63,823 bases of DNA, from IMG/VR virus record IMGVR_UViG_2860823798_000002; one strand, given 5' to 3'. Shown here in pieces: positions 1,353 to 60,257 of this stretch (position 1 is its first letter; each line of letters begins with the position of its first letter). Source of the stretch: an uncultured virus (IMG/VR IMGVR_UViG_2860823798_000002). Taxonomy: Duplodnaviria; Heunggongvirae; Uroviricota; Caudoviricetes. The notes below the pieces were generated by a model. That model saw only the letters and a program-made list of their open reading frames with translations, was not told the origin of the DNA and ran no database searches. The translations under genes were made by a program, and so were the position numbers.

Positions 1353-1380
1353 GTTTAAAATAAAATGACAATTTTAAAGG

Positions 1381-1659
1381 GTGTTAACTATGAGAGTTAA
1401 TCGAAATCCGTTAAGGGAAATAATAGGAACAATACAGGTTAAATTTTCACCTGGCGGTATTTCAATACCAATGGAAGTTTATGAATGTGGACATTATGCT
1501 CCTCCAAAACAAGACATAATAGGCGAATACAATGCGGTAAGAAGAAGATGCGCGAAATGTGGAAGTGGGAAACCTCGAAGTGGGAAACCTCCTCAACTAA
1601 CAAATTTCGAAATAAAACAAATTAAGAACGGTAAACGATTGTTGAAGATAGAAGGATAG
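1381..1659 (+). CDS. small Cys/His-containing hypothetical protein
   Basis: ECGH...RCAKC; contains a 15-bp tandem duplication at 1562-1591. Confidence 0.6.
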   Translation: MLTMRVNRNPLREIIGTIQVKFSPGGISIPMEVYECGHYAPPKQDIIGEYNAVRRRCAKCGSGKPRSGKPPQLTNFEIKQIKNGKRLLKIEG

Positions 1660-1861
1660 ACCGAATTTTAATATGTGATGTTACGAGTAATTTTGTATGA
1701 TGGTGAGACGCTTTTAAACTCTCCTTCAATTGGGTGGAATCTCAACTCGATAGACGCTATCAATGAAACTCTAAATGATACAGGTGATTTGCATACAAAG
1801 GAAAACGGGTGGCAGCGTCTTTCTACTAATGATATTAAGACATTTCGAGAGGGGATACCTT

Positions 1862-2791
1862 ATGTTCAAACATAACGAGATTAATAAAATCAAAGAAAGT
1901 TTTGATGACTTAAAAAATTCAGATTATATACCTATTCCATTTATCGATAAACAATTAAACGAAGTAAGAAGAAAAGACGAGAATGACTTCGAAACGTTCA
2001 GACCTGATTTTTCTAATTTTGATTATAATGCAGTTATTGGTTGGGAAGGTCAATCATATTATTATGGTTATAAAGAAGGTTTCTTTAATATTGCCCATAT
2101 GGCAATAATGTATGCCAAGCATCAGTCTGACACGTTGGTTTATCCGATTATTTTTAATTACAGGCATTATTTAGAGCTCGTGTTAAAGGAGAATATATTA
2201 AGGTTCGAAATTTTTTTTCGTCTTCCTATATCTGTGAATATAAACCATGATTTGAATTATTTATTAAATCAACTAATCGAAATATTAGAGACGTATAAAC
2301 TTGGTTTTTTAATTAGTCCAATGCAAAAAAAAGTTATTCAGGATTTTCATCACATTGATAGTAATAACGATGCTTTTCGATTCGTTTATAATTTACAAGG
2401 GAATCTTAACCACAAGTACGATCACAACACAATTAACCTATTGAGTTTACATTATACAATGAATGAAGTATACAATGATTTTAAAGCCATTGATTATCTT
2501 TTTGAGGGCTTCTTCTATGATAGTTATTTGGAGCCTGAATACGAAGGATTAATTGTAGCATTACGTCATTATTTAGAAGATAAAAAAAATAAAAAAGGTA
2601 TTAATTCTTTTAATAAACTTAGCGGAATAGTGTTAAGATTTGAATACAAGTTTGCTGATGACAAAATCTTTAAATTTGATAGTGTAAACCTACTAAGTGA
2701 TAATGAATATAAAGTAGAATGTAAGATCTTTCCCTTAACTATCATCATAACTGTCAAAGACCAAAAAATCGAATCCATGAGATTAAAATGA
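1862..2791 (+). CDS. hypothetical helical protein, possibly HEPN-like
   Basis: Start moved to ATG 1862 (SD GAGGGG upstream); motifs YPIIFNYRHYLELVLK, HDL and DAFRF. Confidence 0.5.
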   Translation: MFKHNEINKIKESFDDLKNSDYIPIPFIDKQLNEVRRKDENDFETFRPDFSNFDYNAVIGWEGQSYYYGYKEGFFNIAHMAIMYAKHQSDTLVYPIIFNYRHYLELVLKENILRFEIFFRLPISVNINHDLNYLLNQLIEILETYKLGFLISPMQKKVIQDFHHIDSNNDAFRFVYNLQGNLNHKYDHNTINLLSLHYTMNEVYNDFKAIDYLFEGFFYDSYLEPEYEGLIVALRHYLEDKKNKKGINSFNKLSGIVLRFEYKFADDKIFKFDSVNLLSDNEYKVECKIFPLTIIITVKDQKIESMRLK

Positions 2792-2928
2792 TTCAACTAC
2801 CTTTAGATATTCGTGTAAATAGGGTATATAACTCGTTAAAAGAAGCATTTTAATCAGTTTAGTGCAACCTTTCCTATTTCGATCCGTAAGATAGGTAAAT
2901 GTGTTAAACCAAATATAAGGGGGATACT

Positions 2929-3867
2929 TTGCCAATGGGGAGAGGTAACGCTAATTTTGAAAAAGCACTTTATGAAGCTTCAAACGGCAAAATGTTGGAG
3001 ATGCAAGCGGAAAATGTAACTGAAGAAATGAAAGCAAGGAGGCAGATTTTTTATTGTCCAACTCCAAAATGTGAAGCGAAACTAAGCCATAATAAAGGTC
3101 GTGGTAAAAATCCAAAGCCATATTTTTTTCTTCGAAAATTGCCCAACGGTGAAAAAAATACACATGCAAAAGGCTGTAAATTTTATATATTAGATGAATA
3201 TGTTGATATAGAAGAAACTGTTAAGATCAGAAATAAATATGATGGAGTGAAATGGGAAGTGCCCTTGGAAGATGGTGATTATCCTCAATCCAATACCAAT
3301 AAAAGTAAAACAAATGTTCCTACTATACAACCCAGCCGCAACAAAAATATTTCATATTCAAGGTCTATTAAACCCAATATCATGAGAATAAATAATACGC
3401 GCGCGTGTCTTGCTTTACGTAATGAACTAATTCATGAAGAAGCAGAAATAAGGCAGAAAATAAATCAGGAATTAAAAGACCAGGGGATTTTGTATAACAC
3501 GTACTTGTATGACAAGTTGTTGATGGACATTAAAAATATGTCATATAAAAAAGCATTTTATGTACTGGGTTACCTTTGGATATCCGAATGGAAACATTTC
3601 AAGAATTCAGAAAATCCACATTTTTTATTGAGAGGTGCAAATAAACAAATTGCAAAGTGCCATTTTGCCAAAGATGATGTTCAATATGATGTAAGTGATT
3701 TGACATGGGATATGCAGAAAAATATTAAGACGGATTCAAAAGCAAGAAGGTCTACTTTTGTAGCTGTTAAAGCAGCTGTTAGAGGCACAGAAGTTCTAAA
3801 TGTAAATGGGAAAGAAATAGAAGTGTCCTCATTAACAATATATGAAATAGGAACGGAGGATGATTAA
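2929..3867 (+). CDS. hypothetical protein with N-terminal Zn-ribbon (CoiA-N-like)
   Basis: FYCPTPKC...PYFF...HAKGC; SD AAGGGGG. Confidence 0.6.
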   Translation: MPMGRGNANFEKALYEASNGKMLEMQAENVTEEMKARRQIFYCPTPKCEAKLSHNKGRGKNPKPYFFLRKLPNGEKNTHAKGCKFYILDEYVDIEETVKIRNKYDGVKWEVPLEDGDYPQSNTNKSKTNVPTIQPSRNKNISYSRSIKPNIMRINNTRACLALRNELIHEEAEIRQKINQELKDQGILYNTYLYDKLLMDIKNMSYKKAFYVLGYLWISEWKHFKNSENPHFLLRGANKQIAKCHFAKDDVQYDVSDLTWDMQKNIKTDSKARRSTFVAVKAAVRGTEVLNVNGKEIEVSSLTIYEIGTEDD

Positions 3868-3872
3868 TGATA

Positions 3873-3898
3873 AAGAAGAGCCATCAAATGCTCTTCTT
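3873..3898. terminator. hairpin between convergent genes
   Basis: AAGAAGAGC-catcaaat-GCTCTTCTT. Confidence 0.6.
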
Positions 3899-4063
3899 CA
3901 TCCCGCACCGACGACATTCACGTAAAAACACTCCATCTTTAACTGAACTTTTGAAAAGGGTGTAGTCACAATTGTCACAGCGGCCATAATGTGCGTCTGG
4001 ATACTCCTTGTAATCATAGACAATTGAAGTATCATAACCCTTTGTTTCAAACTCTTTCTCCAT
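3884..4063 (-). CDS. 59-aa Zn-ribbon protein (not in ORF track)
   Basis: MEKEFETKGYDTSIVYDY...CDNC...ECRRCGMKKSI; SD GAAGGTG. Confidence 0.75.
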   Translation of the reverse strand: MEKEFETKGYDTSIVYDYKEYPDAHYGRCDNCDYTLFKSSVKDGVFLRECRRCGMKKSI

Positions 4064-4232
4064 GAAATCACCTTCATAAAATAAAGTCAGCTTTATAAGA
4101 ATAACAAACCTTGATACTCAAATATAGATCTATTTTAAAGAAATGGGGAGACCAAATGAAATTACCTAAGTTAAAATTGATATCGAATGGAATGAATTTA
4201 GCAGTGGTAAAAGGATTGAAGGTATTGAAGGC

Positions 4233-4571: not shown

Positions 4572-4866
4572 AGCATTATCGCTCAAAATACTAATTAAAA
4601 GAATAAATTAAATATTAATCAGACATAACAGCCGCCGACAATGTAAGCGGCCAATTTAATCAAATTAAAACAAATTAAAAGTGTAAACGAGGAGTGATTG
4701 AGTTGACTATTGAAAATTGGAGAGACAGTTTAATCTTTATTGGTGTTATGAGTTTGGGGTTGACTGCGCTTATATTATCTCTTGCACATTTCGGCCAATA
4801 ATTCTTTACTTTGTTGTATAATGGTAATCAGATAAAATAATCATTTTACGTAGAGAAGGGTTAATT

Positions 4867-5243
4867 TTGGTACTCAAAGAAAGAGGGCAAATAGATCAAG
4901 AATTTGGTGCTGAAGAAATCGCTGATTATTTAAGATTAAGAGGCTTTAAGCCGAAAGTAGATGTAATGCATTTTGGAGACCATTTCGGGGGAAGCATACC
5001 TTTTGGCACAGACTCAGAAGATATTATATAGCTCTTGTTCAGTTTGATAAACCAGGAGATAAAGATCCATTAAGCAGCAAAAGTGGTTTTACTCAATTAG
5101 GAATGGATTCTAAAGGACGAGCGGAAGAGATAATGATGCATTTGGTAGCATACTTTAATGGATGGTATCGTACAAATAAGGAGCCATTCCCTGAGGAAGA
5201 AGAATGGCTTAACTTATATCTTGAATACAATGAAAATGAATAA
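4867..5243 (+). pseudogene. frameshifted hypothetical gene bracketed by palindromes 4833 and 5241
   Basis: SD GAGAAGGG + TTG 4867; frame stops at ~5030, and a shifted frame from ~5020 stays open to TAA 5241-5243. Confidence 0.55.
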
Positions 5244-5296
5244 AAACATCGTTTTATTAAGTTTTAAACAAGGCATAATGCAAAAGGGGAAGCAAT

Positions 5297-6727
5297 ATGG
5301 TAAAAACACTGAAATGTGAGTCTTTAGACACTTTTGAAGTTATGGGATTATGGTGGACAGATGAGTACCCTGAGAAATTAACAGGGACTCTAAAATATTC
5401 ACCTAGAAACATCACTTTAGAATTAATAGGTGTAATAGGGGATGATGATTTTTTCGGTTCCGAAAATAAAATACCGGAAACAATTTATGGCTTGTCTGTT
5501 AAAGGTGAAAAGTTTAAAGTTGATGTTCTAGTAAGAGTAAAAGTCGAAACGAATATTCCGGGAATTCCTACAGAAATTTATAGAATTAAAAGCTTTATTG
5601 CAGGAAATTATATAGAAGAGTTTCCACAAGACTTTGATTATGCAGAATTACTCACTGATGAATTGACGAGATGGATAGGTAAACGAGGATTCAAAGAGTC
5701 TGATGAAAGAGAAAAAAAATCAGTTGAATATTATACTCCAACTGTCTATAAATATAATATTCCTTGTATTGATGCGTCTATATCTGAAATTCACACTTTA
5801 AATACTAAACGAAATTACAAGTACAGTGATCAAGTTTCACTTTCTCATACGTCGAGCTTTAGAATTAGACCTACTACAGAAAAGGATCTCAATTGGTTTT
5901 TAGATAAAATTCAATCAATTGTTCAATTTTTAAATCTCATACTTCATCAGCCACTCTCAAATATAAATATAAAATTAATAAAAAGTGGTGAATCTTTCCC
6001 TTATACTTTTAAATATTTTACAATCCCGGATAATACAAGTATAGGTAGTAGCAATCTTAAAAAAAGATTTTTCTTTAAATACAATGAAATTCAAGGACAG
6101 TTCGAGAATATTCTTAATAAATGGTTTGAGAAAAAGGAAAGCTTAAATACTATTATCAGTTTATACCTAAGTAGCTTTAAAGATGAATATATTGAGTCTA
6201 AGTTCATTAAAGCTGTTCAAGCTTTAGAGATATTTCATAGAAGGTTCCGGGAAGACACCCAGATTAACGAACAGGTTTACACTGAAAATGTAGATAAAAT
6301 CAGAGAGTTCATTGAAGTAAATATTGAAAATGTAGAAGCTAAAAAGTTATTCTTAGATAAATTCAAACATGGGAACGAATATAATTTAGGCAAACGATTG
6401 AGAAGTTTATTGAAAGAATTATTAGAAGAAACGAATAGATATATTATTGGAAACAGCAGGAATAAGACTAGGTTTATCCAACAAGTAGTCGAAACACGAA
6501 ACTATTTAACACATTATGATCAGTCTCAAAAAATACAGATATTGCATGACCCTCATGAAAAATACTATGCATCATTCAGGTTAACATTAATTCTTGCAAT
6601 AATAATACTGAAAGAGCTTGGAATTGATGAAAAGCGAATTTTAACTAATTTACAAGACCCACATTCAGAATTTGAATTTATTTTGAATTCCGCAAAGAAA
6701 TTTTTGAACAAAGAAACTAAAGTTTAA
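5297..6727 (+). CDS. ApeA-like protein (ApeA N-terminal domain + HEPN RNase), putative anti-phage
   Basis: N-terminal GLWW...LTGTLKY...LELIG; C-terminal QALEIFHR and HEPN Rx4H motif RNYLTH. Confidence 0.75.
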   Translation: MVKTLKCESLDTFEVMGLWWTDEYPEKLTGTLKYSPRNITLELIGVIGDDDFFGSENKIPETIYGLSVKGEKFKVDVLVRVKVETNIPGIPTEIYRIKSFIAGNYIEEFPQDFDYAELLTDELTRWIGKRGFKESDEREKKSVEYYTPTVYKYNIPCIDASISEIHTLNTKRNYKYSDQVSLSHTSSFRIRPTTEKDLNWFLDKIQSIVQFLNLILHQPLSNINIKLIKSGESFPYTFKYFTIPDNTSIGSSNLKKRFFFKYNEIQGQFENILNKWFEKKESLNTIISLYLSSFKDEYIESKFIKAVQALEIFHRRFREDTQINEQVYTENVDKIREFIEVNIENVEAKKLFLDKFKHGNEYNLGKRLRSLLKELLEETNRYIIGNSRNKTRFIQQVVETRNYLTHYDQSQKIQILHDPHEKYYASFRLTLILAIIILKELGIDEKRILTNLQDPHSEFEFILNSAKKFLNKETKV

Positions 6728-6856
6728 ATAAAATAATTGTTTCATTGAAGGAATGAAAATGAAGCTAAATCAATCCTAGAAGAGATTGAAGCAAAAGGTG
6801 CAGAAACAAAGGTTTTTTGTGAACAGAACTGTGGACTTAAATCGGAGTGAAAGCTA

Positions 6857-7839: not shown

Positions 7840-8772
7840 ATGAAAAGATCGAAGATTGTGTTTCTATTTGTTTCTTGCTTATTTGTGATTTTTGCAGTTG
7901 GCTTATATTTGATGTGTATTGGTGATATTTCTAAAGATAGGAGTGCTACATCTAGTACAAATAAGAAAGAAGACCTGATGTGGGGGTATGAAATTATTGG
8001 CCAAGAAGCGCGCAATAATGATACAGAGCCTGTCAAAATAGCTATTCTTGATAGTGGCATTAATAAGTCACATAAAGAGTTTAATAATATAACCTTTTAT
8101 GAATACAATGCTATTGCCCCTAGTAAATCCGTTAAAGATGAGTATGGTCACGGTACAGCAATTGCTGGAATAATAGCTGCAGGCGGTGAAGAGATAAAAG
8201 GGATTTCACAGAATGCTACTTTATATGATGTTAAAGTACTAGATAGTAGTGGCAAAGGCAAAGTTAAGGATGTTGTTAGGGGAATCAATTGGTGTATTGA
8301 ACAAAAAATAGACATTATTAATATAAGCTTTGGATTTGAAAAAGACTACGATGACTTGCGTAATGCTATTAACAATGCTTTACATAACAACATAATTATT
8401 ACTGCTGCCTCTGGAAATACTTTAGGCCTTACTGTTGAATACCCAGCGAAATATAGAGGAGTCTTATCTATTTCCTCTTTTGATGAAAAATTGAAAATTG
8501 ATCCGGTATCAGCAAAAGGCAAAATTGATTTTTCAGCTCCAGGAGTAAATATAAAATCAATAAATAAAGACGGAAGTTATATAAAGTTAGGAGGCACATC
8601 CTTTGCAACTGCGTTTGCAACTGGTGCTATTGGCTGTTTAATTTCAAAAAAGAAAATATCTAAAGAAAATTTTCATCAAACACTCAAGAAGTATGCGGTT
8701 GATTTAGGTAGTTCCGGGTATGACAAAGAGTTTGGTCATGGAATGATTATTTGTAACAAAGGAGAGAAGTAG
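7840..8772 (+). CDS. S8 subtilisin-family serine protease with N-terminal signal/anchor
   Basis: Catalytic triad AILDSG, HGTAIAG, GTSFAT; oxyanion AASGN. Confidence 0.95.
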   Translation: MKRSKIVFLFVSCLFVIFAVGLYLMCIGDISKDRSATSSTNKKEDLMWGYEIIGQEARNNDTEPVKIAILDSGINKSHKEFNNITFYEYNAIAPSKSVKDEYGHGTAIAGIIAAGGEEIKGISQNATLYDVKVLDSSGKGKVKDVVRGINWCIEQKIDIINISFGFEKDYDDLRNAINNALHNNIIITAASGNTLGLTVEYPAKYRGVLSISSFDEKLKIDPVSAKGKIDFSAPGVNIKSINKDGSYIKLGGTSFATAFATGAIGCLISKKKISKENFHQTLKKYAVDLGSSGYDKEFGHGMIICNKGEK

Positions 8773-8773
8773 T

Positions 8774-10126: not shown

Positions 10127-10200
10127 ATCAGTTATAGTGAAAAGAACTATGTAACGCTTATAAAATACGAATTTTATTAAAACTAATTAAAAGAAATATA

Positions 10201-12412: not shown

Positions 12413-13507
12413 TTGGGGGCTGTAGTTCAATCGATAAGAAAATACAGGGTGTTCGATGATATTTTAGCTTTTCTAAAGGAAAAAGACACAGATAGCTCAG
12501 CTGGAAACATTAAGGGGTATAACAAAAACAAGAAGAAAAAATCGAAATACGGATTGCACTCTAATACAGCAGTTAACTATTTAAGCGACATTAAGCAGTT
12601 TTTTTGGTTTTACTGTAAGACTGAAATTGAATTTTTAAAAGAAGAACATCTGTCTTTTAAAAGGTCAGATGTTTTGGCATTTAAACATTATCTTGAGCAT
12701 AACAAAGGTGCAGCTAACACAACTATCAATCGAAAGATCGCAGCACTTAAATCATTACATGGTGAACTGAAAAGGCTTTATCCTGACTATGTTGAAGATG
12801 ATCCTTTTTATAACGTTAAAAGGAGCAAAGAAATAAGAAGGATAAGAGCCAATACTTCACAGATCCAAGCAGAAATGATTTGTGACAACATGTTCATTTA
12901 TGAAAAACAGAAACCACTTCTGAAAAAATTATTTGGGTACTTCCTTTTGAGAAGTTCTTTTAGAATATCCGCGGCTCTTGACGTTAGATGGTGTGATATT
13001 GAAGTATCTAATGAGAACCCAGATTGGTTTAGAGTCACTGTCATTGATAAAGGGGCAAAGCTGTGCACTACAGGAATTCACAGAGTGTTTTATGACCAGT
13101 TGCTTGAATTAAGAAGTGGTAACACAAAAGACACAGATAGGGTATTCGAGGGACTTACTGAAGATGCATTTAGAGCTTCTCTCAAACGCTCATTAAAAAG
13201 TCTGGGCATTCCAGAAGAAAGCGGGATATCTCCTCACTCATTTAAAGGAGTAGGGATAACGGAAGTATTCGAAGCCACAGGAAATGATTATAGAGCAGCC
13301 ATGAAACAAGGTAATCATAGTAACTTTGATACAACCTTGAGATACTTGAACAGCGAAACAGACATCTCCCAAACGGCGGGGATAATAATGGATGAAGAAT
13401 TAGACATATCTATTCTACAGCAAGTTACTAAAGAAGAGTTCTTAGATTTTTTTGAACAATGTGATAAACAAACATTAAGAAAGGCTTTACAGTTTTTCAA
13501 TCGTTAA
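12413..13507 (+). CDS. sroD: tyrosine recombinase-fold protein SroD/YopP
   Basis: TINRKIAALKS; FRISAAL; PHSFK; GNHSNFDTTLRY; synteny. Confidence 0.8.
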   Translation: MGAVVQSIRKYRVFDDILAFLKEKDTDSSAGNIKGYNKNKKKKSKYGLHSNTAVNYLSDIKQFFWFYCKTEIEFLKEEHLSFKRSDVLAFKHYLEHNKGAANTTINRKIAALKSLHGELKRLYPDYVEDDPFYNVKRSKEIRRIRANTSQIQAEMICDNMFIYEKQKPLLKKLFGYFLLRSSFRISAALDVRWCDIEVSNENPDWFRVTVIDKGAKLCTTGIHRVFYDQLLELRSGNTKDTDRVFEGLTEDAFRASLKRSLKSLGIPEESGISPHSFKGVGITEVFEATGNDYRAAMKQGNHSNFDTTLRYLNSETDISQTAGIIMDEELDISILQQVTKEEFLDFFEQCDKQTLRKALQFFNR

Positions 13508-14954: not shown

Positions 14955-15956
14955 ATGGAACTGTATAATGATTCGGTAAAGAAAAAGTTTATAGAACAAG
15001 TCAAAAAGGAAGAGCAGCCCCAGTTATTATCAATATTCCGAAAAGGTGCAGAACTTGAAGAATATTTGAAAAAAGACATTTATGATTTTAATTCTAAAGA
15101 GATTCTTGAGTTTTTAACTCTGTTGAATAGATCCACGCTTTCTTCTATAATGAGCTGCTGGTCTCACATCACAAGATACATTGATTGGGCAATTTATCAA
15201 AGTCTCACCAAAGGTACTACAAATTTGTCTAGAGACTTAACTATCGATGATGTTAAGAACTGCGTAGATGAAGGGAAGAAGCTCTATATTACTTTAAATG
15301 AGCTCAAAGAGATTTTAGATACCTTAGTGAATCCCAGAGATAGAGCCATGTTAATTCTGCTATTTGAAGGGGTTCAAGGCTTCAAATGCAGTGAAATTTT
15401 AAATCTTGAAAAATCAGATATTGAAAAAGCCCTACAGAATGACAACATTTTAACCGTAACTGATGATAAGCATGGGCAGAGAGATATCAAAGTGAGTGAT
15501 GAATGTCTTAAAATTTGTCTTGAAGCTGCAAATGAACCAGTGTATCAAAAGAAAAATGGATATTCTGAAGCATTTAATAAAGAAACAATATTAGCTGATA
15601 ATAATTTTGTTATTAGAAACCGAAGAACCAATTCAGATAAAGATCAAGAAAGATCTTCGTTTTTTGTCATAATTAACACGATGAGATATATTTTCTCACC
15701 AGAGTTTTTTGATTATCCATATGTTAACCCAACGAGAATAAATAGGTCTGGTGTTTTATATGAAGGATTTAAAGTGTATAAAGAAAAAGGGAAATTAGAA
15801 ACAGAAGATTATATTAATATAATTCAAAAGAGAAGCGAAAGATATGAAGACATTCATAAAAAGGTTTACAAGGTTAAAGAATATATGAATGAAGAAGAGA
15901 TTAAAAAATATTATGCGAAAGAGCTTGGGATTGAGGGTACTATTAGAATGCGTTAA
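14955..15956 (+). CDS. sroF: master repressor SroF/YopR (MrpR), degenerate integrase fold
   Basis: NPRDRAMLILLFEG...SEILNL...RSG; catalytic Arg absent; synteny. Confidence 0.82.
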   Translation: MELYNDSVKKKFIEQVKKEEQPQLLSIFRKGAELEEYLKKDIYDFNSKEILEFLTLLNRSTLSSIMSCWSHITRYIDWAIYQSLTKGTTNLSRDLTIDDVKNCVDEGKKLYITLNELKEILDTLVNPRDRAMLILLFEGVQGFKCSEILNLEKSDIEKALQNDNILTVTDDKHGQRDIKVSDECLKICLEAANEPVYQKKNGYSEAFNKETILADNNFVIRNRRTNSDKDQERSSFFVIINTMRYIFSPEFFDYPYVNPTRINRSGVLYEGFKVYKEKGKLETEDYINIIQKRSERYEDIHKKVYKVKEYMNEEEIKKYYAKELGIEGTIRMR

Positions 15957-17312: not shown

Positions 17313-17383
17313 GCAAATTAAAAGTAAATAAAAGAATATTTTTATACAAATTAAAAGGGGGAATACATATAACTTCAATTACA

Positions 17384-18547
17384 TTGTCAACAATGCAGCA
17401 ACAAGCCGTGGAAAGTATTGAAGATTGGTTTAAAGGGGAGGGTAAAGCACCCTACTTCTTAGCAGGGTATGCTGGGACAGGGAAAACCACACTTGTTAAT
17501 TACGTAATTGATAAGTTGAAGATCAAGCTTTCTGAAGTAGCATTTGCATGTTATACGGGGAAAGCGGCACTGGTAGTAACACAGAAAGCTCAAGGAAAGT
17601 ATAAAGCAAGCACGATACACAGTTTGATTTACGACACCTACGTGGATAAAAAAACTGGAGATCTAACTGTAAAGAAAAAATCAAAAGATATGTTGTCACA
17701 CCTTAAATTAATTGTAGTTGATGAGGCCTCAATGGTAGACGGGCAGATTATGAGTGATCTGAGGTCTTTTGGAGTAAAGATTCTTTTTATTGGAGATACA
17801 GGGCAATTGCCGCCAGTCTCACAAAACAAAAATGAGGAATTTCTTCAGATGTTCAATAACCCTGATTTCACATTGACAGAAATTCACCGACAAGCTGCAG
17901 AAAATCCAATCATATACCTGTCAATGCTTGCGCGAACTAAACAAAAAATTGAACCTGGCACGTATGGGAAAAATGGCGAAGCGGTAGTGATTACTCATTC
18001 GACCTGGGAAACAATGAAAGAGCATTTTTACGAGAAAGCAGATCAGATTATTTGTGGTTATAACAGGACAAGAAAGCATTTGAATTCTGAGATAAGAAAG
18101 TTTTTAGGATATGAAAGTGACTTTCCTCTTGAAGGCGATAAGATGATCTGTTTAAAGAATGACTGGAATAAAAATCTTGATGATATAAGTCTGGTTAATG
18201 GTATGACTGGATATGTAAGCAAAGTTTATCAAGAAGATGCTGTTAGTGAACAGCTTAAATACGATTCGACCGTTATTGATTTTCAACCAGATTTTACTGG
18301 CGATTATTTCGAAAAACTTGTTATTCCAAATGACTCGTTAACTGATGATGCATTTAAGCTGCAGCCGCATGAACATAAAATTTATAACTCTTTTGATTAT
18401 GGTTATGTAATCACTTGCCACAAATCACAAGGATCGCAATGGGAAAAGGTTGTAGTCATTGATGAAGTTCTAGATAGGAACATGCACCACAGATGGCTCT
18501 ATACCGCAATAACACGTAGCACAGAAAAGTTAGTGTTGGTTGTGTAA
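17384..18547 (+). CDS. SF1B RecD/Dda-like ATP-dependent helicase
   Basis: GYAGTGKT; VVDEASM; GDTGQLPPV; TEIHRQ; TCHKSQGSQW; YTAITR. Confidence 0.92.
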   Translation: MSTMQQQAVESIEDWFKGEGKAPYFLAGYAGTGKTTLVNYVIDKLKIKLSEVAFACYTGKAALVVTQKAQGKYKASTIHSLIYDTYVDKKTGDLTVKKKSKDMLSHLKLIVVDEASMVDGQIMSDLRSFGVKILFIGDTGQLPPVSQNKNEEFLQMFNNPDFTLTEIHRQAAENPIIYLSMLARTKQKIEPGTYGKNGEAVVITHSTWETMKEHFYEKADQIICGYNRTRKHLNSEIRKFLGYESDFPLEGDKMICLKNDWNKNLDDISLVNGMTGYVSKVYQEDAVSEQLKYDSTVIDFQPDFTGDYFEKLVIPNDSLTDDAFKLQPHEHKIYNSFDYGYVITCHKSQGSQWEKVVVIDEVLDRNMHHRWLYTAITRSTEKLVLVV

Positions 18548-18595
18548 CTTTTAAATAAAATTGAAGTTTTACATAAATTAAAAGGAGGAGTTTTT

Positions 18596-19506: not shown

Positions 19507-20482
19507 AAGGAAGGGAAAACTGCAAATGAGAATCCTTCAGAAGTGCTTTTATGAAGAGGCGGTTTATGTGTATTCTGATGAATTTGAAGCAAATAAACAT
19601 TTCATTGAAACGTTGGAGCCAAAAGGTTGGGAAATTGATGCTTGCTGGGTAGGAACTGAAGCTGGCCGATTAAAACAGTTTTATCGATATAAAAAGAAAA
19701 CGAAATAAAAGTATGGAGTGTTTAATATGAAAGAATCCTTTAAAAAAGAGATTCAAGATTTCTGGTTTATCACAAAGAATTTCCTTGTAGTCTCCGGTGC
19801 TTTATTTTGGCTTTTTATAATCTTTCTTTGTGTTTGGAGAGGGAAGAGTCATTAAAAAAGTTAAGGTTCAGGCTTCTTGTGGCTTTTATGCAGGTGAACC
19901 AAAGTGGAGATCATTTGCGAATGACTGGTGTTTCGTACTAGATGAATGTTGCTGGGAGGGAACAGTTGAAATAGATGAAGAAAATTGGAGTGACGGAGCT
20001 GGTTCTATGACCTGTCCTCAATGTGGTTCATTACTAACTCAAGATATGGATCACTTTGAATTGCTTTAAAAGGATTATTTTATCCAAAGAGGGGATGAAA
20101 GTATCGGTTACATCAAATACATATTGGAAACAGCATGGTTTAACTTAGTATGGTTTAAATGGCATTTAGGAGCAGATATAAAAGTGCTTGAGAATTGCAG
20201 CTGGAAAGACTATATAGATTTCAAAAGGAGGGGCAATGATGAATTACAATCTTAATGATAAGACCCTTAAAGAGATTTTTGATTTTTATTTTGAGTCCCA
20301 TGGTCAGAAAGTGGAAGAAGTACAGTTTCTTGAAAACCGTGTCCTTGTAAGAACTAAATCAAAAGTCAATAAGCGTATTGATATTCCTGAATTCATACAT
20401 AAAAGACCGCACAAATCAAAATATGCTATTGGATAAAACATAAATCAATTAAAAGTATAATATCGAAAAGGTTTATAAGGAG

Positions 20483-21761: not shown

Positions 21762-22572
21762 ATGACGAAAACTAACGAAAAAATCCACGTATTGGCTGAC
21801 GAATCACTTGGCGGAATCAAACGCGAATATGTAGAGGTCAATAGGAAGGCGAAACTGGGTGAGAAGATCGTAATTGTCGATGCTGACCCAGGTTATGGAG
21901 ATCATTATTCAAATGGGGATTTTTTTACCGTCGAGCTCTACACGGGTTATGGTAGTGGTGTAGCAACAAAATGCGGTCATCATGTTGGTAATAACGAATA
22001 CTGTACACTCGAACCGACCAACGTCGTCCACATTGACGGGGAGCGCTACGAAATGGTCGAACGCAAGGCGGAAGTATGCGAGAAGGTTATTCATCTGAAT
22101 AACGATAAATCGGGAGGAAGGGTAAGGGAGGTTACTAATGTGGGCGTTGGCACGATCGATGTAATCGAATACGAACATCCAGACGGAGACATCACGTGCG
22201 GATTTTCACATGGATGCTATCGTGTCCTTGTTCCATTGTCTAAAGAAAATGAATATCAAGAATTCGAAGATAAGAAAAGGGGATACAAAGAAGTAAAAAA
22301 CTTTTATACATAATGAATTAGGTATAACGAAAGATGCCATTCAAGAAATGATTCGTATTGCAGTATCAAATGAAGTTAAAAAAGCAACAGAGTCAGGGGA
22401 ATTTCAGTCATTTATAAATTCAAAAATTGACTCACTTATAGAAGAGGGATTTGGAGATGGAGGAAGGTTGCTCTACGGCTTTAAAGAAAGAGTGTCTCAA
22501 ACAGTATCTAATGAAGTAGGCAAACGAATTGCCAATAACCTCAACATAAGTGTGGAGCTGAAAAGTCGATAA
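21762..22572 (+). pseudogene. phage protein with repeated RKAKxGE modules, probably one gene split by a +1 T at ~22302-22305
   Basis: Removing one T from AACTTTTATACAT joins 21762..22313 to 22348..22572 (…KNFIHNELGITKDAIQEMIR…). Confidence 0.5.
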
Positions 22573-22603
22573 AATAGTTATTTTATTATGAAGGAGGAAT
22601 TGT

Positions 22604-23991: not shown

Positions 23992-24350
23992 GAAGTAATG
24001 TTGAAATTAATGAATTGATTCAAGACCGATTATTCAACGGTTACAAGAAGAGGAAAATCACTCCAGATGAATGCTTTGAGCTTTTAGGGGATATTGTGGC
24101 CGATGAATTGGCTTTTGATAATGATGGGAAAGTGGTTAATCTTAAAAACTTTGCGGGAGAAATGAGTTTAGCATTGCAGGTAGTTGAGAAGCTACAAAAA
24201 GGTTATGGACTAAATTTTTATTTATCAAGAGAACACGATTTTATCGGTCTGGAAGATTGGTGTGCTGCTTTTGACGAGTATGAAGCTTGGGCAGAAAAAC
24301 CAGAGAAAGCAACATGCTTAGCGGCATTAAAAGCACTGAAAATTAGATAA
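23988..24350 (+). CDS. phage ABA-sandwich-like protein
   Basis: ALQVVEKL...WCAAF...ATCLAALKA. Confidence 0.6.
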
Positions 24351-24486
24351 AACAGAAATTTTATATAAATTAAAAGAACCTATTGATACACACGACAGAA
24401 ATCAAAGCAGCTCCGGCGCTGCTGTCGATCCTGCTACAGGCCGGATACAGGGAAAAACAGATCGAACAATGGTTACAAGATGACGG

Positions 24487-27790: not shown

Positions 27791-27941
27791 GAAATACCCT
27801 TTCTTACTTTTTTTATAATTATAAATTAAGCTTCAAGATTTATAAAGATTCAAAAGTCTTATTAGAAAATGCCCCGAAAATAAAGATATTTAGGATTTGA
27901 TTAAAACTAACCTTTTATTAAAAAAATGTTTGAAATAACAA

Positions 27942-27970
27942 TAGACAAAAACAAATTAAAAGTATATAAT
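27942..27970 (+). promoter_or_regulatory. repeated early promoter/operator (SPBRE-like), copy 1
   Basis: TAGACA-aaaac-AAATTAAAAGTA-TATAAT with 17-bp spacing. Confidence 0.8.
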
Positions 27971-28001
27971 TAAAACATATTGATGAGAAAGAGGTGATTA
28001 T

Positions 28002-29385: not shown

Positions 29386-30357
29386 ATGACAATAGACATT
29401 TTTAACCCTCAGATTTCTGTAGTAGCAAAAGGACTTGAAGGAAAAGTTATTACGATATATGGATCTAACAACTTAGGAAAAACAAAACAAAGTACCAGAA
29501 TGAAAAAGCCACTCTATCTTCCATTTGAAAAAGGATTGAATGCAATTGCTGGAGTCCCTTTCATGCCGATTAATAGCTGGGGAGATTTCAAAAAAGTGAA
29601 CAAGCAGCTCACAAAAAATCCCGAAAAGGCTAAAGAAGCTTATCAAACCATAATTGTTGATGAAGTTGATGCTTTCTCAAAATATGCTACGAGATATGTA
29701 TGTGACCAATATGATGTTGATCGAATTAAGGATGGAAACGATGGATTTGGCTTATGGAAAGAGTATGAAACCGAAATCTGGGAGGAAATTAACAAACTCT
29801 TAAATGTAGGATTTACTGTTGTCTTTATTGCTCACGCAACCGAAGATAAGGATGGAAAAATCATTCCTAAAGGGGATAAGCGAGTGCTCGCACCAGTAAT
29901 CGATAATAGCGATATAGTCTTATTCCTTAGCTCAAATGGTGTGGATGAAGATAATAGGGTAATTAAATCTAGCGCTTGGTTAGCTGAAACAAAGAAATTT
30001 TTTGCTCGTAGCCGTTTTGATTATATCGATACATACATTGAGGAGTTTACTGCTGAGAACCTTGAAAAGGCTGTTATCGAAGCAATTAAACGACAAGAAG
30101 AAGCAGAAGGAATTCAGGCCGTTACATATGAAGAACAGAAGCAAAAGAACTCATCAGAGAAATTGGACTATGACCAATTAATGGAGCAGATAATCGAAAT
30201 CGGCACAAAGCTAAGTGAAGAAGGCAGACTTGAGGAAGTAAATGAGGTAACCGAAAAGCATCTCGGTCAAGGGGCGAGGGTAACAGAATGTACGAAAAAA
30301 CAGACAGATGTAATGTCAGTTATTTTAGACGATCTTAAAGACCTTCTTGAAAATTAA
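29386..30357 (+). CDS. yorG: AAA_24/Sak4-like ATPase
   Basis: YGSNNLGKT; TIIVDEVD; VFIAH. Confidence 0.8.
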   Translation: MTIDIFNPQISVVAKGLEGKVITIYGSNNLGKTKQSTRMKKPLYLPFEKGLNAIAGVPFMPINSWGDFKKVNKQLTKNPEKAKEAYQTIIVDEVDAFSKYATRYVCDQYDVDRIKDGNDGFGLWKEYETEIWEEINKLLNVGFTVVFIAHATEDKDGKIIPKGDKRVLAPVIDNSDIVLFLSSNGVDEDNRVIKSSAWLAETKKFFARSRFDYIDTYIEEFTAENLEKAVIEAIKRQEEAEGIQAVTYEEQKQKNSSEKLDYDQLMEQIIEIGTKLSEEGRLEEVNEVTEKHLGQGARVTECTKKQTDVMSVILDDLKDLLEN

Positions 30358-35278: not shown

Positions 35279-35293
35279 ATGGGAGGGAATGCT

Positions 35294-42458: not shown

Positions 42459-42975
42459 AAGATTTACCCCCTAGGTTTTGATTGTGTTACAAGTCTAGTA
42501 TAGCATGTAAAAATTTAGTAATGTGTGAAGTGTTTGTGAAACTGAATAAAATATCAATTTTAAACAGACTATAAAAGAGAAAGGTAAGTGAATTTGGGAG
42601 AGAATTATTTTAGAGTATTGTGGAATGGAACAAGGGTTAATCTTAAGTTTCCAACTAAACAGAAAGCTATTGCATACATAAACAGAAGAAGAGCATTTAA
42701 TTGTGAGATTCAAGAGCGAACACAAGATCATAAGCTTGTGAACAGTTGGATCATCCATACATATTGATTGGGGGAGGGTACTATCAACTACTACGCTTAT
42801 AATTTCATATTAGATAACTTAGATTTGATCGAGAAAAGACTTGATGATCTTCATACATATCTAGAGAATACTTTTACATATGAGGAAAGAAAAGTGTGGA
42901 ATCGTGCTGACAAGGATTTGATTTTTGCACTTATGAAAATCGAAGAAATTAAAAACGACATTCGCTAATTTTTTA

Positions 42976-44476: not shown

Positions 44477-44634
44477 AAGGAGCTGAATAAATGTCGAATG
44501 TGAATATAAAAGATTCTGCTACGATTATTTTTAAAAAGAGTCCATCTGGAGAAACAGTGGATGAAATAAAGGTGGTTACTATGCCGTCGAAGATAGCTGG
44601 TCAAAAGTTTTATTTTAACTAAAAAACAAAAAGG

Positions 44635-45321: not shown

Positions 45322-45585
45322 TTGGTGCCCTACATAGTTTAAATAAAAGGATGATTTTAAAGAAAGAGGAGGAAAGCCCGTGGCTTATGATGAGATTAAT
45401 GGCAAGTTAATTAACCCAAAAGTAAGTGATGTAATTAAAGCATTACAAGATCAACTTGATTTTTACGGCGACACACCAGTTAACTTCAGGATTGATGGTG
45501 AAGAAGCTAGGGATGAGATTCAATTAGATCCATATAAAAATGTTCTTGTGTTGCATTTAGAGGAAGTTTAAGGAGGAAAGCTACA

Positions 45586-45798: not shown

Positions 45799-46688
45799 AA
45801 GGATGATGAAAATGAATAAAAAATTTGGTTTATATGTTATGGGATCGCTTGTTAGCACTTATGACGATGCAATTGAAGCTCATAAAGATGCTGTAGTTGC
45901 CCAGGAGGAAAGTGGAGTCCCACATGAGGTGAAAGAACTCCAATAAACCAGGAGGGATGATCATGGAACTTGAAGCTAGACTGAAAATACACAAAGACTC
46001 AGACAATACACATCTACAAGGGAAACTCATCGTAAAACCAAACGGAGAATATGTAAACCTTAAATTTGATGATTGTAGCCGCGAAGTTTCAGTACTGATA
46101 GATGAGTTAAGAACTGTGGTTAATATGGTGGAGTGAGAGGGGACTGTTTATGAGCAATCATTTCAAATTTAAACTGTCAGAAAAGATACTCTCAAATTCT
46201 GATGCTGATTTCAGTAGAACTGTTTTCGAAGCAAAAAGAAGAGGTAACTCTGATTTGTACGATGTAACTAATAACATGTATGATGAAGCGTTTATTTACA
46301 CAAAGACGAATGTAGATCAGTATATCAAAAATGGTGATTGGATTCTAATATAAATAAATTAAAAGGATGATTAGGATGGTAAACGATAAATGGGTAGTTG
46401 TAGTAAAACGTAATGGAGAGCCAAGTAGAGAAGAAGTATACAATAATTTTGTTACAGGAGAAGACATTACATTTACTGATACAGCAGCTGCAGAAGGATT
46501 TGCTAAGAAGATACAAGGAGAAGGAAGAGGCTTTCAAGCAGTAGTTGAGTCATTTGATGTTCATGTGAACACAAAAAGAATGTTTGATGATAGCTTTGTA
46601 GCAACATTAGAAGCAAATAGAGTATCACAAAGCTGAATAAAATCATAATTTTATATACTAATTAAAAGTAATATAAGGAGGAAGGATT

Positions 46689-53951: not shown

Positions 53952-54280
53952 GGGGAATAAAAAATATCTAAGTGGAAAGTTGATTTTTTTATTGAAGAAT
54001 TAACCGATCTTGATTTTTTCTATCCAACTACTGTAAGCTCGCATACGAAATTAGATTTGAATATTGTCTTTGAAAGACTTATGGAATTAACACTTGATTG
54101 CAAACTAGCATTGAAATTTGAATGGAGGACAGAGGAAGGCACTAAGATTCTTGATTTGGATAGATTCAATAATCTGTTTAAATTAGAGAGGCATGATCAA
54201 ATACCTCTACATGAATTATATCCTGTGTTTCAAGTTTCTGAAGAAAATAAAAGACACTTAAATAAAAGGAGATCGAAAAA

Positions 54281-54696
54281 ATGACACTACATATCAAAAT
54301 CAAATATGCAGACGAAACACAAACGCGCGTGATTGGATTGATCTGAGAGCTGCGGAAGATGTATCTATTCCAAAGGATGAGTTTAAACTGATTCCTCTCG
54401 GAGTGGCGATGGAATTGCCTGAAGGGTATGAAGCCCATGTCGTTCCTCGTTCAAGTACATATAAAAATTTCGGTATCATTCAGACCAATTCAATGGGCGT
54501 GATTGATGAGTCATACAAAGGGGACGATGATTTCTGGTTTTTCCCGGCTTATGCGCAGCGAGATACTGAAATTAAAAAGGGAGATCGAATTTGCCAATTC
54601 AGAATTATGGAGAAGATGCCTGCAGTTGAATTGGTCGAGGTCGATCATTTAGGCAACAAAAACCGTGGAGGGCACGGTTCAACTGGCACTAAGTAA
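54281..54696 (+). pseudogene. dut: dUTPase (YosS-like), frameshifted by a deletion after 54328
   Basis: [16 protein letters not shown], then [10 protein letters not shown]...PRSS...RGGHGSTG in another frame. Confidence 0.88.
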
Positions 54697-55220: not shown

Positions 55221-55627
55221 CTTTTGCAGAATTTATTGAACAATTTAATTTTATCAAATCTTTGAAAATACAGGTATTAATAACCTTTGAATTTTCAATA
55301 AAAGAAGACTTTTATCGTAATTGTTAAGGAGGTGCAAAATGAAGAAGATAGATGAAATAAAGCAACACTTAGAAAAAATTAATAAGCTAGAACAAACATT
55401 GGCTGTTTTTGAGGAGTCAGACGAATTACACCTTGACGTGCTTCATAAAATCCAGGGGGAATTTGATGAGATCAGTGATTTAGCTTTGAACGCTTTTCGA
55501 GAATTAACTGAAAAAATACGCAATGTAGGAAGCAAAACAATCAACAATAAAATTAAAGCTTTACCCAATACAGTACAGAAAAGTGTCAAGGAGAATATGG
55601 ATGAACTAATAAATGAATTAAAATGAG

Positions 55628-56524: not shown

Positions 56525-56525
56525 T

Positions 56526-56552: not shown

Positions 56553-56632
56553 CTGTGGGATACCTGGCAAAGGGGATGATTCATTTAGAAAAAATAAAAC
56601 ACAAATTAAAAGTAATTTGAGGAGGTGAGGAA

Positions 56633-58593: not shown

Positions 58594-58696
58594 ATCGGTT
58601 TTTAGGCGCTGACATCTATCTGCTGACACAATTGATTCTGTATGAAATCTGTATTTTATTTAGATGAATAGGAGCAGCTTAAGCCACTCCTGAAAA

Positions 58697-58900
58697 TTAA
58701 TGAAATTGCCCGCCCATTTGCTGTTGAGCCATTTGGACAAGACGTTTAGTTATTTCTCCTCCAATTGAACCATTTGCTCTTGAAGTAGTCTCTGCACCTA
58801 ATTGAACACCAAACTCTTGAGCTATTTCAAGCTTCATTTGTTCAATAGCTACCTGAGCATTTGGAATAAGTAATTCATTATTATTGTTATTACGTGCCAT
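58697..58900 (-). CDS. sspC: alpha/beta-type small acid-soluble spore protein
   Basis: [36 protein letters not shown] 58900 with SD AGGAG. Confidence 0.95.
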
Positions 58901-58941
58901 GCTAATCATCTCCTATTGAGGTTAATGGTAATACATACTGT

Positions 58942-58970
58942 TATTATTTGAATTTGAAACTGTTTTATTC
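58942..58970 (-). promoter_or_regulatory. putative sigG-type promoter of sspC
   Basis: Minus strand GAATA-17-AATAATA. Confidence 0.45.
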
Positions 58971-58997
58971 ATTATTTATGAAAGGAGGAGTTATATA

Positions 58998-59342
58998 TTG
59001 AGTCAATTTCATTTATTCAAATACCCGGTGACATCTAAAGAAGGGAATGAATATGCCGTCAGTGTCTATGATGAAAGATACTCTTCAAACGCTGTAAGAG
59101 TATCACTATATAAAAAGACGCAAGGATTTTTTAGAAATGAAAAATTCAAGTGTCTTACAGGAAGCGGAAATTGGGCTCCCTGTTATGACGAAAAGGAATG
59201 GAAATACGATTATATTGCGATGGCAATAAACGAGGTAATTAGATACGAGAATTCAATCAAAGAAAAAATCGAACATGAAAATAAGCGAAAAGTAGCCTTT
59301 AAGATGTTTGAGAAGTGGAGTGGAAAAGAGGGATCTTCTTGA
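58998..59342 (+). CDS. hypothetical phage protein
   Basis: SD AAAGGAGG. Confidence 0.7.
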   Translation: MSQFHLFKYPVTSKEGNEYAVSVYDERYSSNAVRVSLYKKTQGFFRNEKFKCLTGSGNWAPCYDEKEWKYDYIAMAINEVIRYENSIKEKIEHENKRKVAFKMFEKWSGKEGSS

Positions 59343-59757
59343 GGTATGGGAGTTAAAAATAATTTATGAAGAGAGGAATGGGGATGTTTAAATATCACAC
59401 ACGACACGGAATTGTGTCAATCCAAATTGGTAAGCAAAATTTTGAAAACATGACAGTCGACGTGAACGAAGAAGATGGGAATAAATTGACTTGCGATATG
59501 TTTCACGAAGATGATGGTGATATTGGATTTGTATACAAAAATGAAACGATTTATTTTCATCACACTATATAAAATGTTGATTTCATTTAGAAAGGTGGAA
59601 AAGTATTGACCGTTACAGCTTGGATTTTGTTGATTATGTTTGGTTTATTCGCCTTATCAGATTTGAACTTTACTGAAGATGAAACAAAGCATATCAAGTT
59701 CTTCATAATAATGAAATTTGTTTCTGTCTTTATAGCTGCTATAGCTGCAGGCGTGAT

Positions 59758-60216
59758 TTGGGGAGGGCTATTTCAATGAAGACGATTAAATTATATGAAC
59801 TTGTATCAGAAGGTAAAAAACCAATTATTAAATTTAATGATAATGTGTATGAATGGATTGAAGAATCAGTCGATCCCATGATGATGGGGAAAATAATTGG
59901 AGCTTCAATTGAGTATAATGAGATTAAATTTTTATTAGATTTGAATCCTTTTGAATCATACAATCGAAGCGTTGCGCGGCATGATTGGAGAGATGATGAA
60001 GGGAATAGTGTTTTATCATGGTTTGACACTTCTTTCTATCCGAAAAACGGAATTGCAGCTATTTACTTACCTATTAGTGAAGAAACAGAAATCGCATTTG
60101 ATTTTATAGAAGAGGATTCTTTATTAAATGAATATGCAAAAAACACTAAAGACACTAAAGACATCTCGTATGTTGAATGGCTTGAAAATGAAGTTAAGCA
60201 ATTAAGAATTAAATAA
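59758..60216 (+). CDS. hypothetical phage protein
   Basis: Its stop codon starts palindrome 60214. Confidence 0.7.
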
Positions 60217-60257
60217 AATCGGTCTTTTATATAAACCAATTAAAAGGAGTTTATTAA

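What the first reader, a model, noticed from the sequence alone, without database searches (positions are those of the whole stretch)
1361..60229. Candidate integron-like cassette system: a TAAAA-N6-TTTTA palindrome marks accessory-gene boundaries
Seen: 17 exact copies (1361, 2837, 4833, 5241, 10161, 17329, 18556, 20067, 22570, 24348, 27902, 42547, 43933, 45344, 46638, 55299, 60214) plus near copies (6729, 7661, 44602, 58643, 59570). All lie at gene boundaries, and every 6-bp spacer is different (TGACAA, GAAGCA, TAATCA, ACATCG, TACGAA...). In 7 cases the leading TAA is the upstream gene's stop codon (5241, 20067, 22570, 24348, 43933, 59570, 60214); most others lie within ~25 nt of a stop and are followed by an SD and the next gene. 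I noticed none in the gaps of the core replisome (28-42 kb) or the nrd block, though I did not scan exhaustively. A rough composition estimate predicts only a few chance copies. Established: inverted arms around a 6-8 bp spacer are the layout of tyrosine-recombinase core sites, integron cassettes end at a recombination site near the stop codon, and Tn916-type integrases tolerate mismatched 6-bp overlaps. Inference: these are junctions or scars of a gene-capture/shuffling mechanism that builds the accessory genome, or operators for a dimeric phage protein.
Basis: partly seen in the sequence, partly recalled or inferred. Interest (0 to 1): 0.88.

Follow-up and report, generated by a model that had tools for sequence, protein, structure and literature searches.

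The report
Addressed gene-swap sites in SPbeta-like phage
A 28-base mirror-image DNA site sits between many accessory genes of this SPbeta-like Bacillus phage; related phages keep each copy's own six-base centre in the same order while the genes on either side are replaced, so the sites most likely let related phages trade gene blocks in register, probably through a phage recombinase whose role is not yet shown.

Summary
Real. TAAAA-N6-TTTTA occurs 19 times in this SPbeta-like prophage arm (about 1 expected; other spacings 0-4). It is the core of a symmetric 11-6-11 site. The 6-bp centres act as addresses: 180 centres shared with 20 related sequences keep their order (0 of 922 pairs discordant) and orientation, often with both flanks unrelated, and look-alike or self-complementary centres are depleted within a genome. 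Relatives break at 20 of 21 site-bearing junctions against 36 of 61 other accessory junctions, but 122 of 151 breakpoints lie elsewhere. This is not an integron and not the SroF/MrpR operator. It works like pdif modules or heterospecific lox sites: crossover between matching addresses of two phage genomes. The best enzyme candidate is the tail-module tyrosine recombinase YomM, outside the window. Arrays occur in YomM-bearing phages without SroD, and a gut clade with TGAAA arms has Ala for Gln at a predicted base-reading position (one clade only). No binding or reaction is shown; laboratory hybrids were uninformative; five YomM-bearing phages lack a clear array. The scan reported this motif before on many other genomes; I found no description of the array in print.

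The parts
1355..1382 (.). 28-bp site, address TGACAA
   Evidence: same address with unrelated flanks in a relative
2831..2858 (.). site, address GAAGCA
   Evidence: 3 left, 3 right flank families
4827..4854 (.). site, address TAATCA
5235..5262 (.). site, address ACATCG; TAA is the stop of ORF 5103-5243
5297..6727 (+). ApeA-family (HEPN) anti-phage gene, bracketed exactly by sites ACATCG and TAATTG: a single-gene module
   Evidence: Pfam ApeA_NTD1 and HEPN_Apea; PADLOC ApeA/PDC-S58
6723..6750 (.). near site, address TAATTG, right arm TTTCA (this arm variant travels with its downstream flank)
   Evidence: 7 left families
10155..10182 (.). site, address TACGAA, upstream of aimR-like gene 10253-11422
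12413..13507 (+). SroD/YopP-like tyrosine recombinase fold, catalytic set present with HxxK; second-choice enzyme candidate
14955..15956 (+). SroF/MrpR repressor (integrase fold); binds a different box, not part of this system
   Evidence: Pfam MrpR domains
17323..17350 (.). site, address GAATAT (a drifting address: GATGGA, GATTAA, GATGAA, GATGTA, GATGCA in relatives)
17384..18547 (+). Dda/RecD-like helicase gene bracketed by sites GAATAT and TTGAAG
18550..18577 (.). site, address TTGAAG, shared with SPbeta with unrelated flanks
   Evidence: joint 18571->20065 in contigs of two other studies
20061..20088 (.). site, address GGATTA; TAA stop of ORF 19830-20069
   Evidence: 5 left families
22564..22591 (.). 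site, address TAGTTA; joins the left flank that carries TCGTCA in relatives to the TAGTTA spacer (0.8-1.4 kb missing)
24342..24369 (.). site, address CAGAAA; all four left/right flank combinations occur, exact shared block 16 bp
27896..27923 (.). site, address CTAACC, at the left edge of the replisome block
29386..30357 (+). Sak4-like ssDNA annealing protein (enzyme of the rival micro-homology explanation)
   Evidence: PHROG 124
42541..42568 (.). site, address TATCAA
43927..43954 (.). site, address TTCAAA; TAA stop of ORF 43465-43935
44596..44623 (.). near site, address GTTTTA, shared with SPbeta and phi3Ts
45338..45365 (.). site, address GGATGA, shared with SPbeta
46632..46659 (.). site, address TCATAA, upstream of the yosL-nrd block
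55293..55320 (.). site, address GAAGAC (9 left, 6 right flank families)
58637..58664 (.). near site, address TCTGTA, left arm TGAAA; shared with phi3Ts
59564..59591 (.). near site, address TGTTGA, right arm TTTCA; shared with SPbeta and phi3Ts
60208..60235 (.). site, address TCGGTC; shared with SPbeta and phi3Ts; four combinations occur

Best explanation
Each copy is a 28-bp core site for one homodimeric tyrosine recombinase: two symmetric 11-bp arms around a 6-bp overlap. Strand exchange needs matching overlaps (established for Xer/Cre-type enzymes; inferred here), so sites within one genome, which all differ, rarely react with each other, while the same address in two related genomes present in one cell (prophage and superinfecting phage, or concatemers of a mixed infection) reacts. 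One crossover makes a hybrid; crossovers at two addresses swap the block between them. The left arm stays with the upstream gene and the right arm with the downstream gene, so order is kept and genes stay whole. The most likely enzyme is YomM, the conserved Xer-like gene beside the tape-measure gene, which lies outside this window. Shown: anatomy, address conservation, breakpoints, co-occurrence. Inferred: protein binding, cleavage, enzyme identity, timing in the late lytic cycle.
For: 11-6-11 dyad with sharp edges. 180 shared centres, 0 of 922 pairs out of order, none inverted; 5 shared with SPbeta (0.74 expected) with both flanks at 7-17 of 40 identity. 29 of 151 breakpoint clusters at sites (2.6 expected); 20 of 21 site junctions broken against 36 of 61 other accessory junctions, p=0.002. 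8 of 10 ends of the five SPbeta/phi3Ts tracts of 99.3% identity or more lie at sites. With unrelated left flanks the left outer arm is at background identity (381 pairs); outer arms follow their own flank (0.69 against 0.34; 0.65 against 0.38); median exact shared block 17 bp in 752 pairs; all four flank combinations at 6 of 42 addresses. Among 208 sites of 9 genomes: 19 near-identical spacer pairs against 42 expected (0 of 2000 shuffles as low), 0 self-complementary spacers against 4.6 (p=0.008). Independent replicate in a gut-phage pair with TGAAA arms: 16 shared addresses, 15 in order, 11 with both flanks unrelated; 9 of 42 ends at sites against 0.5. YomM: Xer/Cre fold, R, K, H, H, Y kept in all 20 TMP-clade rows, 86% identical between window relatives and SPbeta while SroD is 30-43%, a site directly after its stop codon in relatives and Goe11. 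Arrays without SroD: six gut genomes and G035. Gln52 in 11 of 11 TAAAA-type and Ala in 7 of 7 TGAAA-type enzymes; the position aligns with SroF L25, a base-reading residue.
Against: No binding, cleavage or recombination product was observed. 122 of 151 breakpoints are not at sites; the phi3T/phi3Ts 's' swap is not. Of 10 main crossovers in five laboratory hybrids, 9 lie in long identical tracts (uninformative) and 1 in a 39-bp stretch without a site. phiL47, nattely, SEP9, Ldl1 and G037 have a YomM-like gene but no clear array. Array genomes were found through YomM homology, so 'YomM is always present' is circular. The Gln/Ala switch is one clade, with three other columns switching too, and G037 has Ala without a strong array. 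The second catalytic Arg is Lys in all 7 SPbeta-clade YomM. On the right side identity decays over about 10 bp past the arm rather than at once. Site 22570 joins unlike addresses. Exact duplicate spacers alone are not significantly depleted (0 against 2.6, p=0.07). yomM is not in the window and G001, a 42% complete record, lacks it.
Confidence: 0.6

Rival explanations
1. Micro-homology joints: the palindrome is bound by a protein for another reason, and the 16-20 shared bases serve as crossover points for the phage Sak4/RecJ or host annealing machinery; no site-specific enzyme is involved.
For: Sak4-like and RecJ-like genes are in the window; other indels use short RBS-like homologies (e.g. 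44108); one laboratory crossover lies in a 39-bp site-free stretch; the join at 22570 could use 7 shared bases; PeSL cassettes of T4-type phages shuffle modules this way (PMC2839356, abstract).
Against: Median exact block only 17 bp, down to 12 at four-combination addresses; strict 6-bp spacing and dyad symmetry are not needed for annealing; depletion of self-complementary and look-alike centres; arm sequence switches with a recombinase clade.
Confidence: 0.13
2. Same enzyme and sites, other purpose: the array serves to circularise or resolve the phage's own headful-packaged, permuted or concatemeric DNA (Cre/lox-like); unique centres make sure that only the two copies of one site pair. Gene swapping is a by-product.
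For: SPbeta-like phages package by headful from concatemers (10.1101/2021.11.22.469490, passages); sites also occur every 5-15 kb in structural arms and inside genes; yomM lies in the late module.
Against: Kirov has fixed 284-bp terminal repeats (PMC10454425) and 25 sites, the first at 20.4 kb; gaps reach 17-30 kb; sites crowd in accessory regions and are absent from the window's core blocks.
Confidence: 0.12
3. Integron-like or Tn916-like cassette system: single genes excise as circles between neighbouring sites despite mismatched centres and re-insert at any site.
For: Single genes are bracketed by sites (5297-6727, 17384-18547); site 22570 joins unlike addresses; one address of 16 is out of order in the gut pair.
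Against: 0 of 922 address pairs out of order in window relatives; one left flank family nearly always carries one address; no hairpin; no back-joint between sites in four contig sets (contigs drop rare forms).
Confidence: 0.08
4. Operator or nucleoid-organising site of a dimeric phage protein (for example the HU-like YonN), with breakpoints coinciding because both lie between genes.
For: The same consensus is a predicted operator of an archaeal regulator (PMC5397151, passage); HU-like genes in 9 of 9 fetched array genomes and 0 of 5 without array; many sites precede a ribosome-binding site.
Against: An operator does not explain centres conserved between unrelated flanks; site junctions break more often than other accessory junctions; HU-like gene not found in G035 and G036 (arrays) and present in SIOphi, K and AR9 (no array); only 4 of 10 MrpR peak regions hold a site and they share another word; -35 matches are at most 4 of 6.
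Confidence: 0.07

Closest known systems
pdif (xrs) modules of Acinetobacter plasmids, host XerC/XerD (PMC11705084, passages read)
   Same: Several Xer-type sites per replicon flanking accessory genes; divergent central regions block deletion within a molecule; matching central regions recombine between co-resident molecules.
   Different: Here a phage; arms are symmetric (one enzyme) and read AAAA-centre-TTTT, not the Xer ATAA-centre-TTAT; 20-50 sites in fixed order; candidate enzyme is phage-encoded.
Single-recombinase core sites: XerA, XerH/difH, Cre/loxP; heterospecific lox pairs in cassette exchange (own knowledge; structural matches)
   Same: Dyad arms around a short asymmetric overlap; YomM has this fold.
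   Different: Natural systems use one or two sites for resolution; a natural genome-wide set of mutually incompatible sites is not part of them.
Putative attP beside Tyrovirus gp50 (PMC9703825, section 12 read)
   Same: 11-6-11 dyad next to the YomM orthologue; the authors note its odd place in the structural module.
   Different: One copy only, with other arms (GAAGATTAAGA in Kirov); the 25-33 TAAAA copies of Kirov and FADO are not mentioned in that section.
PeSL cassettes of T4-type phages (PMC2839356, abstract)
   Same: Repeated intergenic element marking modular shuffling in accessory regions.
   Different: PeSLs are promoter-terminator elements recombining by homology and forming mini-circles; these sites have no promoter or hairpin signal and keep order.
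Integrons (IntI/attC/attI; own knowledge)
   Same: Genes bracketed by sites near stop codons; tyrosine recombinase fold.
   Different: No folded attC, no reordering, no array under one promoter, no IntI.
SPBRE / SroF (MrpR) operator (PMC10516654 passages; 10.1101/2025.11.27.690993 section 5)
   Same: Repeated intergenic word in SPbeta bound by an integrase-fold protein.
   Different: Non-palindromic CAAATACAAAAAATATG-type word, monomeric binding, at promoters.

Membership tests
Integron | attC sites folding into a single-strand hairpin | tested here: not met
   28-mers fold at -0.1 to -4.0 kcal/mol; site ends at 28 bp
Integron | IntI-family integrase | tested here: not met
   NCBIfam lists only XerC, XerD, XerA, XerS-type models, all below cut-off
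Integron | cassette order is shuffled | tested here: not met
   0 of 922 address pairs discordant
Integron | excised cassette circles | tested here: inconclusive
   none in four contig sets, which drop rare forms
pdif / host Xer-dif | 28-bp site, 11-6-11 | tested here: met
pdif / host Xer-dif | distinct XerC and XerD arms with ATAA-centre-TTAT | tested here: not met
   symmetric arms with AAAA-centre-TTTT against PMC11705084 passage
pdif / host Xer-dif | exchange between matching central regions of co-resident replicons | tested here: inconclusive
   footprint fits; no reaction observed; laboratory hybrids uninformative
Tyrosine-recombinase core-site system | enzyme with fold and catalytic residues | tested here: met
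   YomM of relatives: R180, K211/K217, H281, K/R284, H309, Y319; fold matches XerA, Cre, Int; second Arg is Lys in the SPbeta clade
Tyrosine-recombinase core-site system | enzyme binds and cleaves the site at the overlap edges | not testable with these tools
   needs biochemistry
SPBRE / SroF operator | matches the MrpR/SroF box and its binding peaks | tested here: not met
PeSL | strong promoter plus terminator stem-loop | tested here: not met
Tn916-type coupling sequences | overlap mismatch tolerated as a rule | tested here: not met
   centres matched across unrelated flanks; one exception at 22570

The most novel reading that the evidence does not exclude
Large Firmicutes siphoviruses (Spbetaviruses, staphylococcal SPbeta-like phages, Tyroviruses, a gut clade) encode a dedicated recombinase, YomM, and a genome-wide code of 20-50 mutually incompatible core sites that lets related phages exchange accessory modules, defence genes included, in register: a natural, evolved cassette-exchange system that programmes phage mosaicism, with arm specificity set in part by one helix-B residue.
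Probability: 0.5. Interest if true: 0.92.

Novelty: new variant of a known kind. Interest (0 to 1): 0.8.

Why it matters
How phages swap whole genes without long homology is an old open question. Here a defined site, a named candidate enzyme and laboratory phages that share addresses (SPbeta, phi3T in Bacillus subtilis) make it directly testable. It would give a function to the unexplained 'integrase' in the tail module of many large siphoviruses, explain how defence and counter-defence genes move between them, and offer one recombinase with dozens of natural orthogonal sites.

Tried and rejected
Laboratory phi3T x SPbeta hybrids (four genomes and one fragment): uninformative or site-free; short strand flips of 7-22 k-mers in that painting were set aside as repeats. 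phi3T/phi3Ts 's' fragment ends are not at sites. Contigs of four runs: joints of relatives at sites (18571->20065 in two studies, 24364->25294 in one), no circles; no raw reads were offered, and X1 may be the source. Circularisation as the general purpose: rejected for Kirov. SroF operator, promoter and hairpin readings: rejected. HU-like YonN as the binder: neither necessary nor sufficient. Tyrovirus 'attP' as the same site: other arms. De novo palindrome scans found no N6 array in phiL47, nattely, SEP9, Ldl1, G037. Of 20 YomM-bearing records scanned for TAAAA, 2 had arrays and 18 had 0-8 copies; I fetched 6 of the 18 and 5 had GAAA-type arrays; 12 were not examined de novo. Single-sequence PDB searches with YomM and SroD gave nothing. 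No paper supporting the Cre helix-B contacts was found, so I rely on the SroF structure text. No whole genome is held for the window, so yomM in this very phage is not shown. No complex prediction was run (no DNA partner offered). Literature searches for the array; none described it. Lazarevic 1999 and the supplements of the Dragos preprint (16 recombination sites, one non-homologous near yosA) could not be seen and may bear on the claim.

Full report
Setting. The window is the right arm of an SPbeta-like prophage: aimR-like regulator, sroD, sroE, sroF, replisome, nrd block, yotM and a serine integrase. No whole genome is held. Fifteen close IMG/VR relatives were assembled from fetched loci.

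Observation. There are 19 exact TAAAA-N6-TTTTA copies against about 1 expected, and 0-4 for any other spacing from 0 to 15. Four one-mismatch copies carry centres that are addresses in relatives (6729, 44602, 58643, 59570). SPbeta has 34 copies and phi3Ts 30. Across 207 distinct contexts the information runs from -6 to +21 and then drops: consensus TYTRAATAAAA-N6-TTTTAWWSARA, a symmetric 11-6-11 site. Seventeen of 19 are intergenic; none lies in the window's three core blocks.

Addresses. Against 20 related sequences the window shares 180 centres; none of 922 pairs is out of order and none is inverted. Five are shared with SPbeta (0.74 expected, p=0.0005) with unrelated sequence on both sides. 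One address carries up to 12 left and 15 right flank families. At 6 of 42 testable addresses all four left/right combinations exist, which requires crossing over at or beside the site; the exact shared block there is 12-23 bp, median 17 bp over 752 pairs. Outer arms and arm variants travel with their own flank; on the left the edge is sharp, on the right identity decays over about 10 bp. Within a genome look-alike centres are avoided: 19 pairs within one mismatch against 42 expected, no self-complementary centre against 4.6, no exact duplicate against 2.6 (the last not significant) among 208 sites of 9 genomes, two of which share addresses.

Breakpoints. 29 of 151 breakpoint clusters fall at the 23 sites (2.6 expected). 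20 of 21 site-bearing junctions are broken in at least one of 15 relatives, against 36 of 61 other accessory junctions (p=0.002). Eight of ten ends of the five SPbeta/phi3Ts tracts of 99.3% identity or more lie at sites; the threshold was chosen after seeing the table, a 99.2% tract has neither end at a site, and one end uses a one-mismatch site. Against: 122 of 151 breakpoints are elsewhere (introns, HNH genes, RBS micro-homologies), the phi3Ts 's' swap is not at sites, and of 10 main crossovers in five laboratory hybrids 9 are unresolved within long identical tracts and 1 is site-free. The sites are one route of exchange, not the only one. Site 22570 joins two unlike addresses.

Range. Arrays with TAAAA arms: Kirov 25, FADO 33, staphylococcal SPbeta-like 17, G035 32, G036 37, and by a stricter pattern E3 17, Perkons 9, phi36 18, Goe11 16. 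A gut clade uses TGAAA-N6-TTTCA: MT835469 25, G030 25, G031 19, G024 11, G034 8, G012 7. In MT835469 and G010, 16 addresses are shared, 15 in order, 11 with both flanks unrelated, and 9 of 42 alignment ends are at sites against 0.5. Controls SIOphi, K and AR9 show 1, 4 and 9 copies, equal to their reversed-pattern controls of 1, 4 and 10.

Enzyme. SroF binds a different, non-palindromic box as a monomer. SroD keeps its catalytic set but is 30-43% identical between phages with the same arms and is missing from six gut genomes and from the complete record G035. YomM is 86% identical between window relatives and SPbeta, has the Xer/Cre fold and catalytic residues, and in relatives and Goe11 a site follows its stop codon. 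Position 52 is Gln in 11 of 11 TAAAA-type and Ala in 7 of 7 TGAAA-type enzymes and aligns weakly with SroF L25, which reads bases in the crystal structure. Limits: one clade, three other columns switch too; genomes were selected by YomM homology; five YomM-bearing phages lack a clear array; the SPbeta clade has Lys for the second Arg; an HU-like gene co-occurs partly and may be an accessory factor.

Mechanism. I infer spacer-matched, site-specific crossover between two related phage genomes in one cell, by YomM (0.6). Rivals: micro-homology annealing (0.13), resolution or circularisation of the phage's own DNA with swaps as by-product (0.12), cassette circles (0.08), operator or architectural site (0.07).

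Known systems. The logic is that shown for Acinetobacter pdif sites, where only closely related central regions recombine between plasmids (PMC11705084, passages), but the arms are not Xer arms and the enzyme appears phage-encoded. It fails the integron, PeSL and SPBRE tests. One 11-6-11 dyad beside the Tyrovirus YomM orthologue is in print as a putative attP, with other arms (PMC9703825 section 12). Searches found no description of the array; the literal consensus appears once, for an archaeal regulator (PMC5397151, passage). Papers seen: passages of PMC10516654, PMC11984713, PMC10454425, PMC11705084, PMC5397151 and 10.1101/2021.11.22.469490; passages plus one section of 10.1101/2020.05.06.055103, 10.1101/2025.11.27.690993 and PMC9703825; abstract of PMC2839356; listing only of PMC6449649. 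No supplements were seen. Statements on integrons, Cre/lox cassette exchange and Tn916 coupling sequences are recalled.

Earlier scan notes. At least twelve earlier reports on other genomes reached the 'addressed joint' reading; I reuse that wording and tested it here.

Verdict. A real, conserved feature with a strong recombination footprint; new variant of a known kind; enzyme proposed, not shown.

Noticed in passing
window 5297-6727: ApeA-family HEPN anti-phage gene as a single-gene module between two sites; relatives carry other genes there.
   Followed up: partly
window 7840-10080: Three-gene operon (subtilase, 286-aa unknown, DUF7878) just upstream of aimR; function unknown.
   Followed up: no
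window 35279-40235: DNA polymerase gene split by an intervening sequence of about 1 kb with an HNH gene (37988-38812); some relatives lack it or carry another insertion at 36691.
   Followed up: partly
window 47394-50903: nrdE split by an intervening sequence of about 255 bp and carrying a 1152-bp in-frame insertion (intein-like), both absent in one relative.
   Followed up: partly
window 40243-40962: A site lies inside the yorM-like reading frame after the hydrophobic leader, as in SPbeta and phi3T; it may allow leader/domain exchange.
   Followed up: no
window 27937-27981 and about 9927-9956: A repeated element of about 40 bp recurs elsewhere in the source run's contigs; candidate SroF box of this phage. 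The SPbeta SPBRE matrix finds nothing in the window.
   Followed up: no
window 17323-17350: This address drifts (GAATAT, GATGGA, GATTAA, GATGAA, GATGTA, GATGCA) while its left flank is fixed.
   Followed up: no
SPbeta L005:29165-30560: The mtbP methyltransferase gene lies in a 99.9% identical SPbeta/phi3Ts tract bounded by sites GATCAA and TTTGTC.
   Followed up: partly
L181-L184 (Lactobacillus phage Ldl1): A different strong spaced palindrome (GCA.GT, 3-bp gap, 20 copies against 0.3) in a YomM-bearing phage without the N6 array.
   Followed up: no
YomM and SroD alignments: The HxxR catalytic motif reads HxxK in all seven SPbeta-clade YomM and in six of seven SroD orthologues.
   Followed up: no
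window 54057-54696: dUTPase match covers only ORF 54403-54696; the gene may be split or frameshifted.
   Followed up: no
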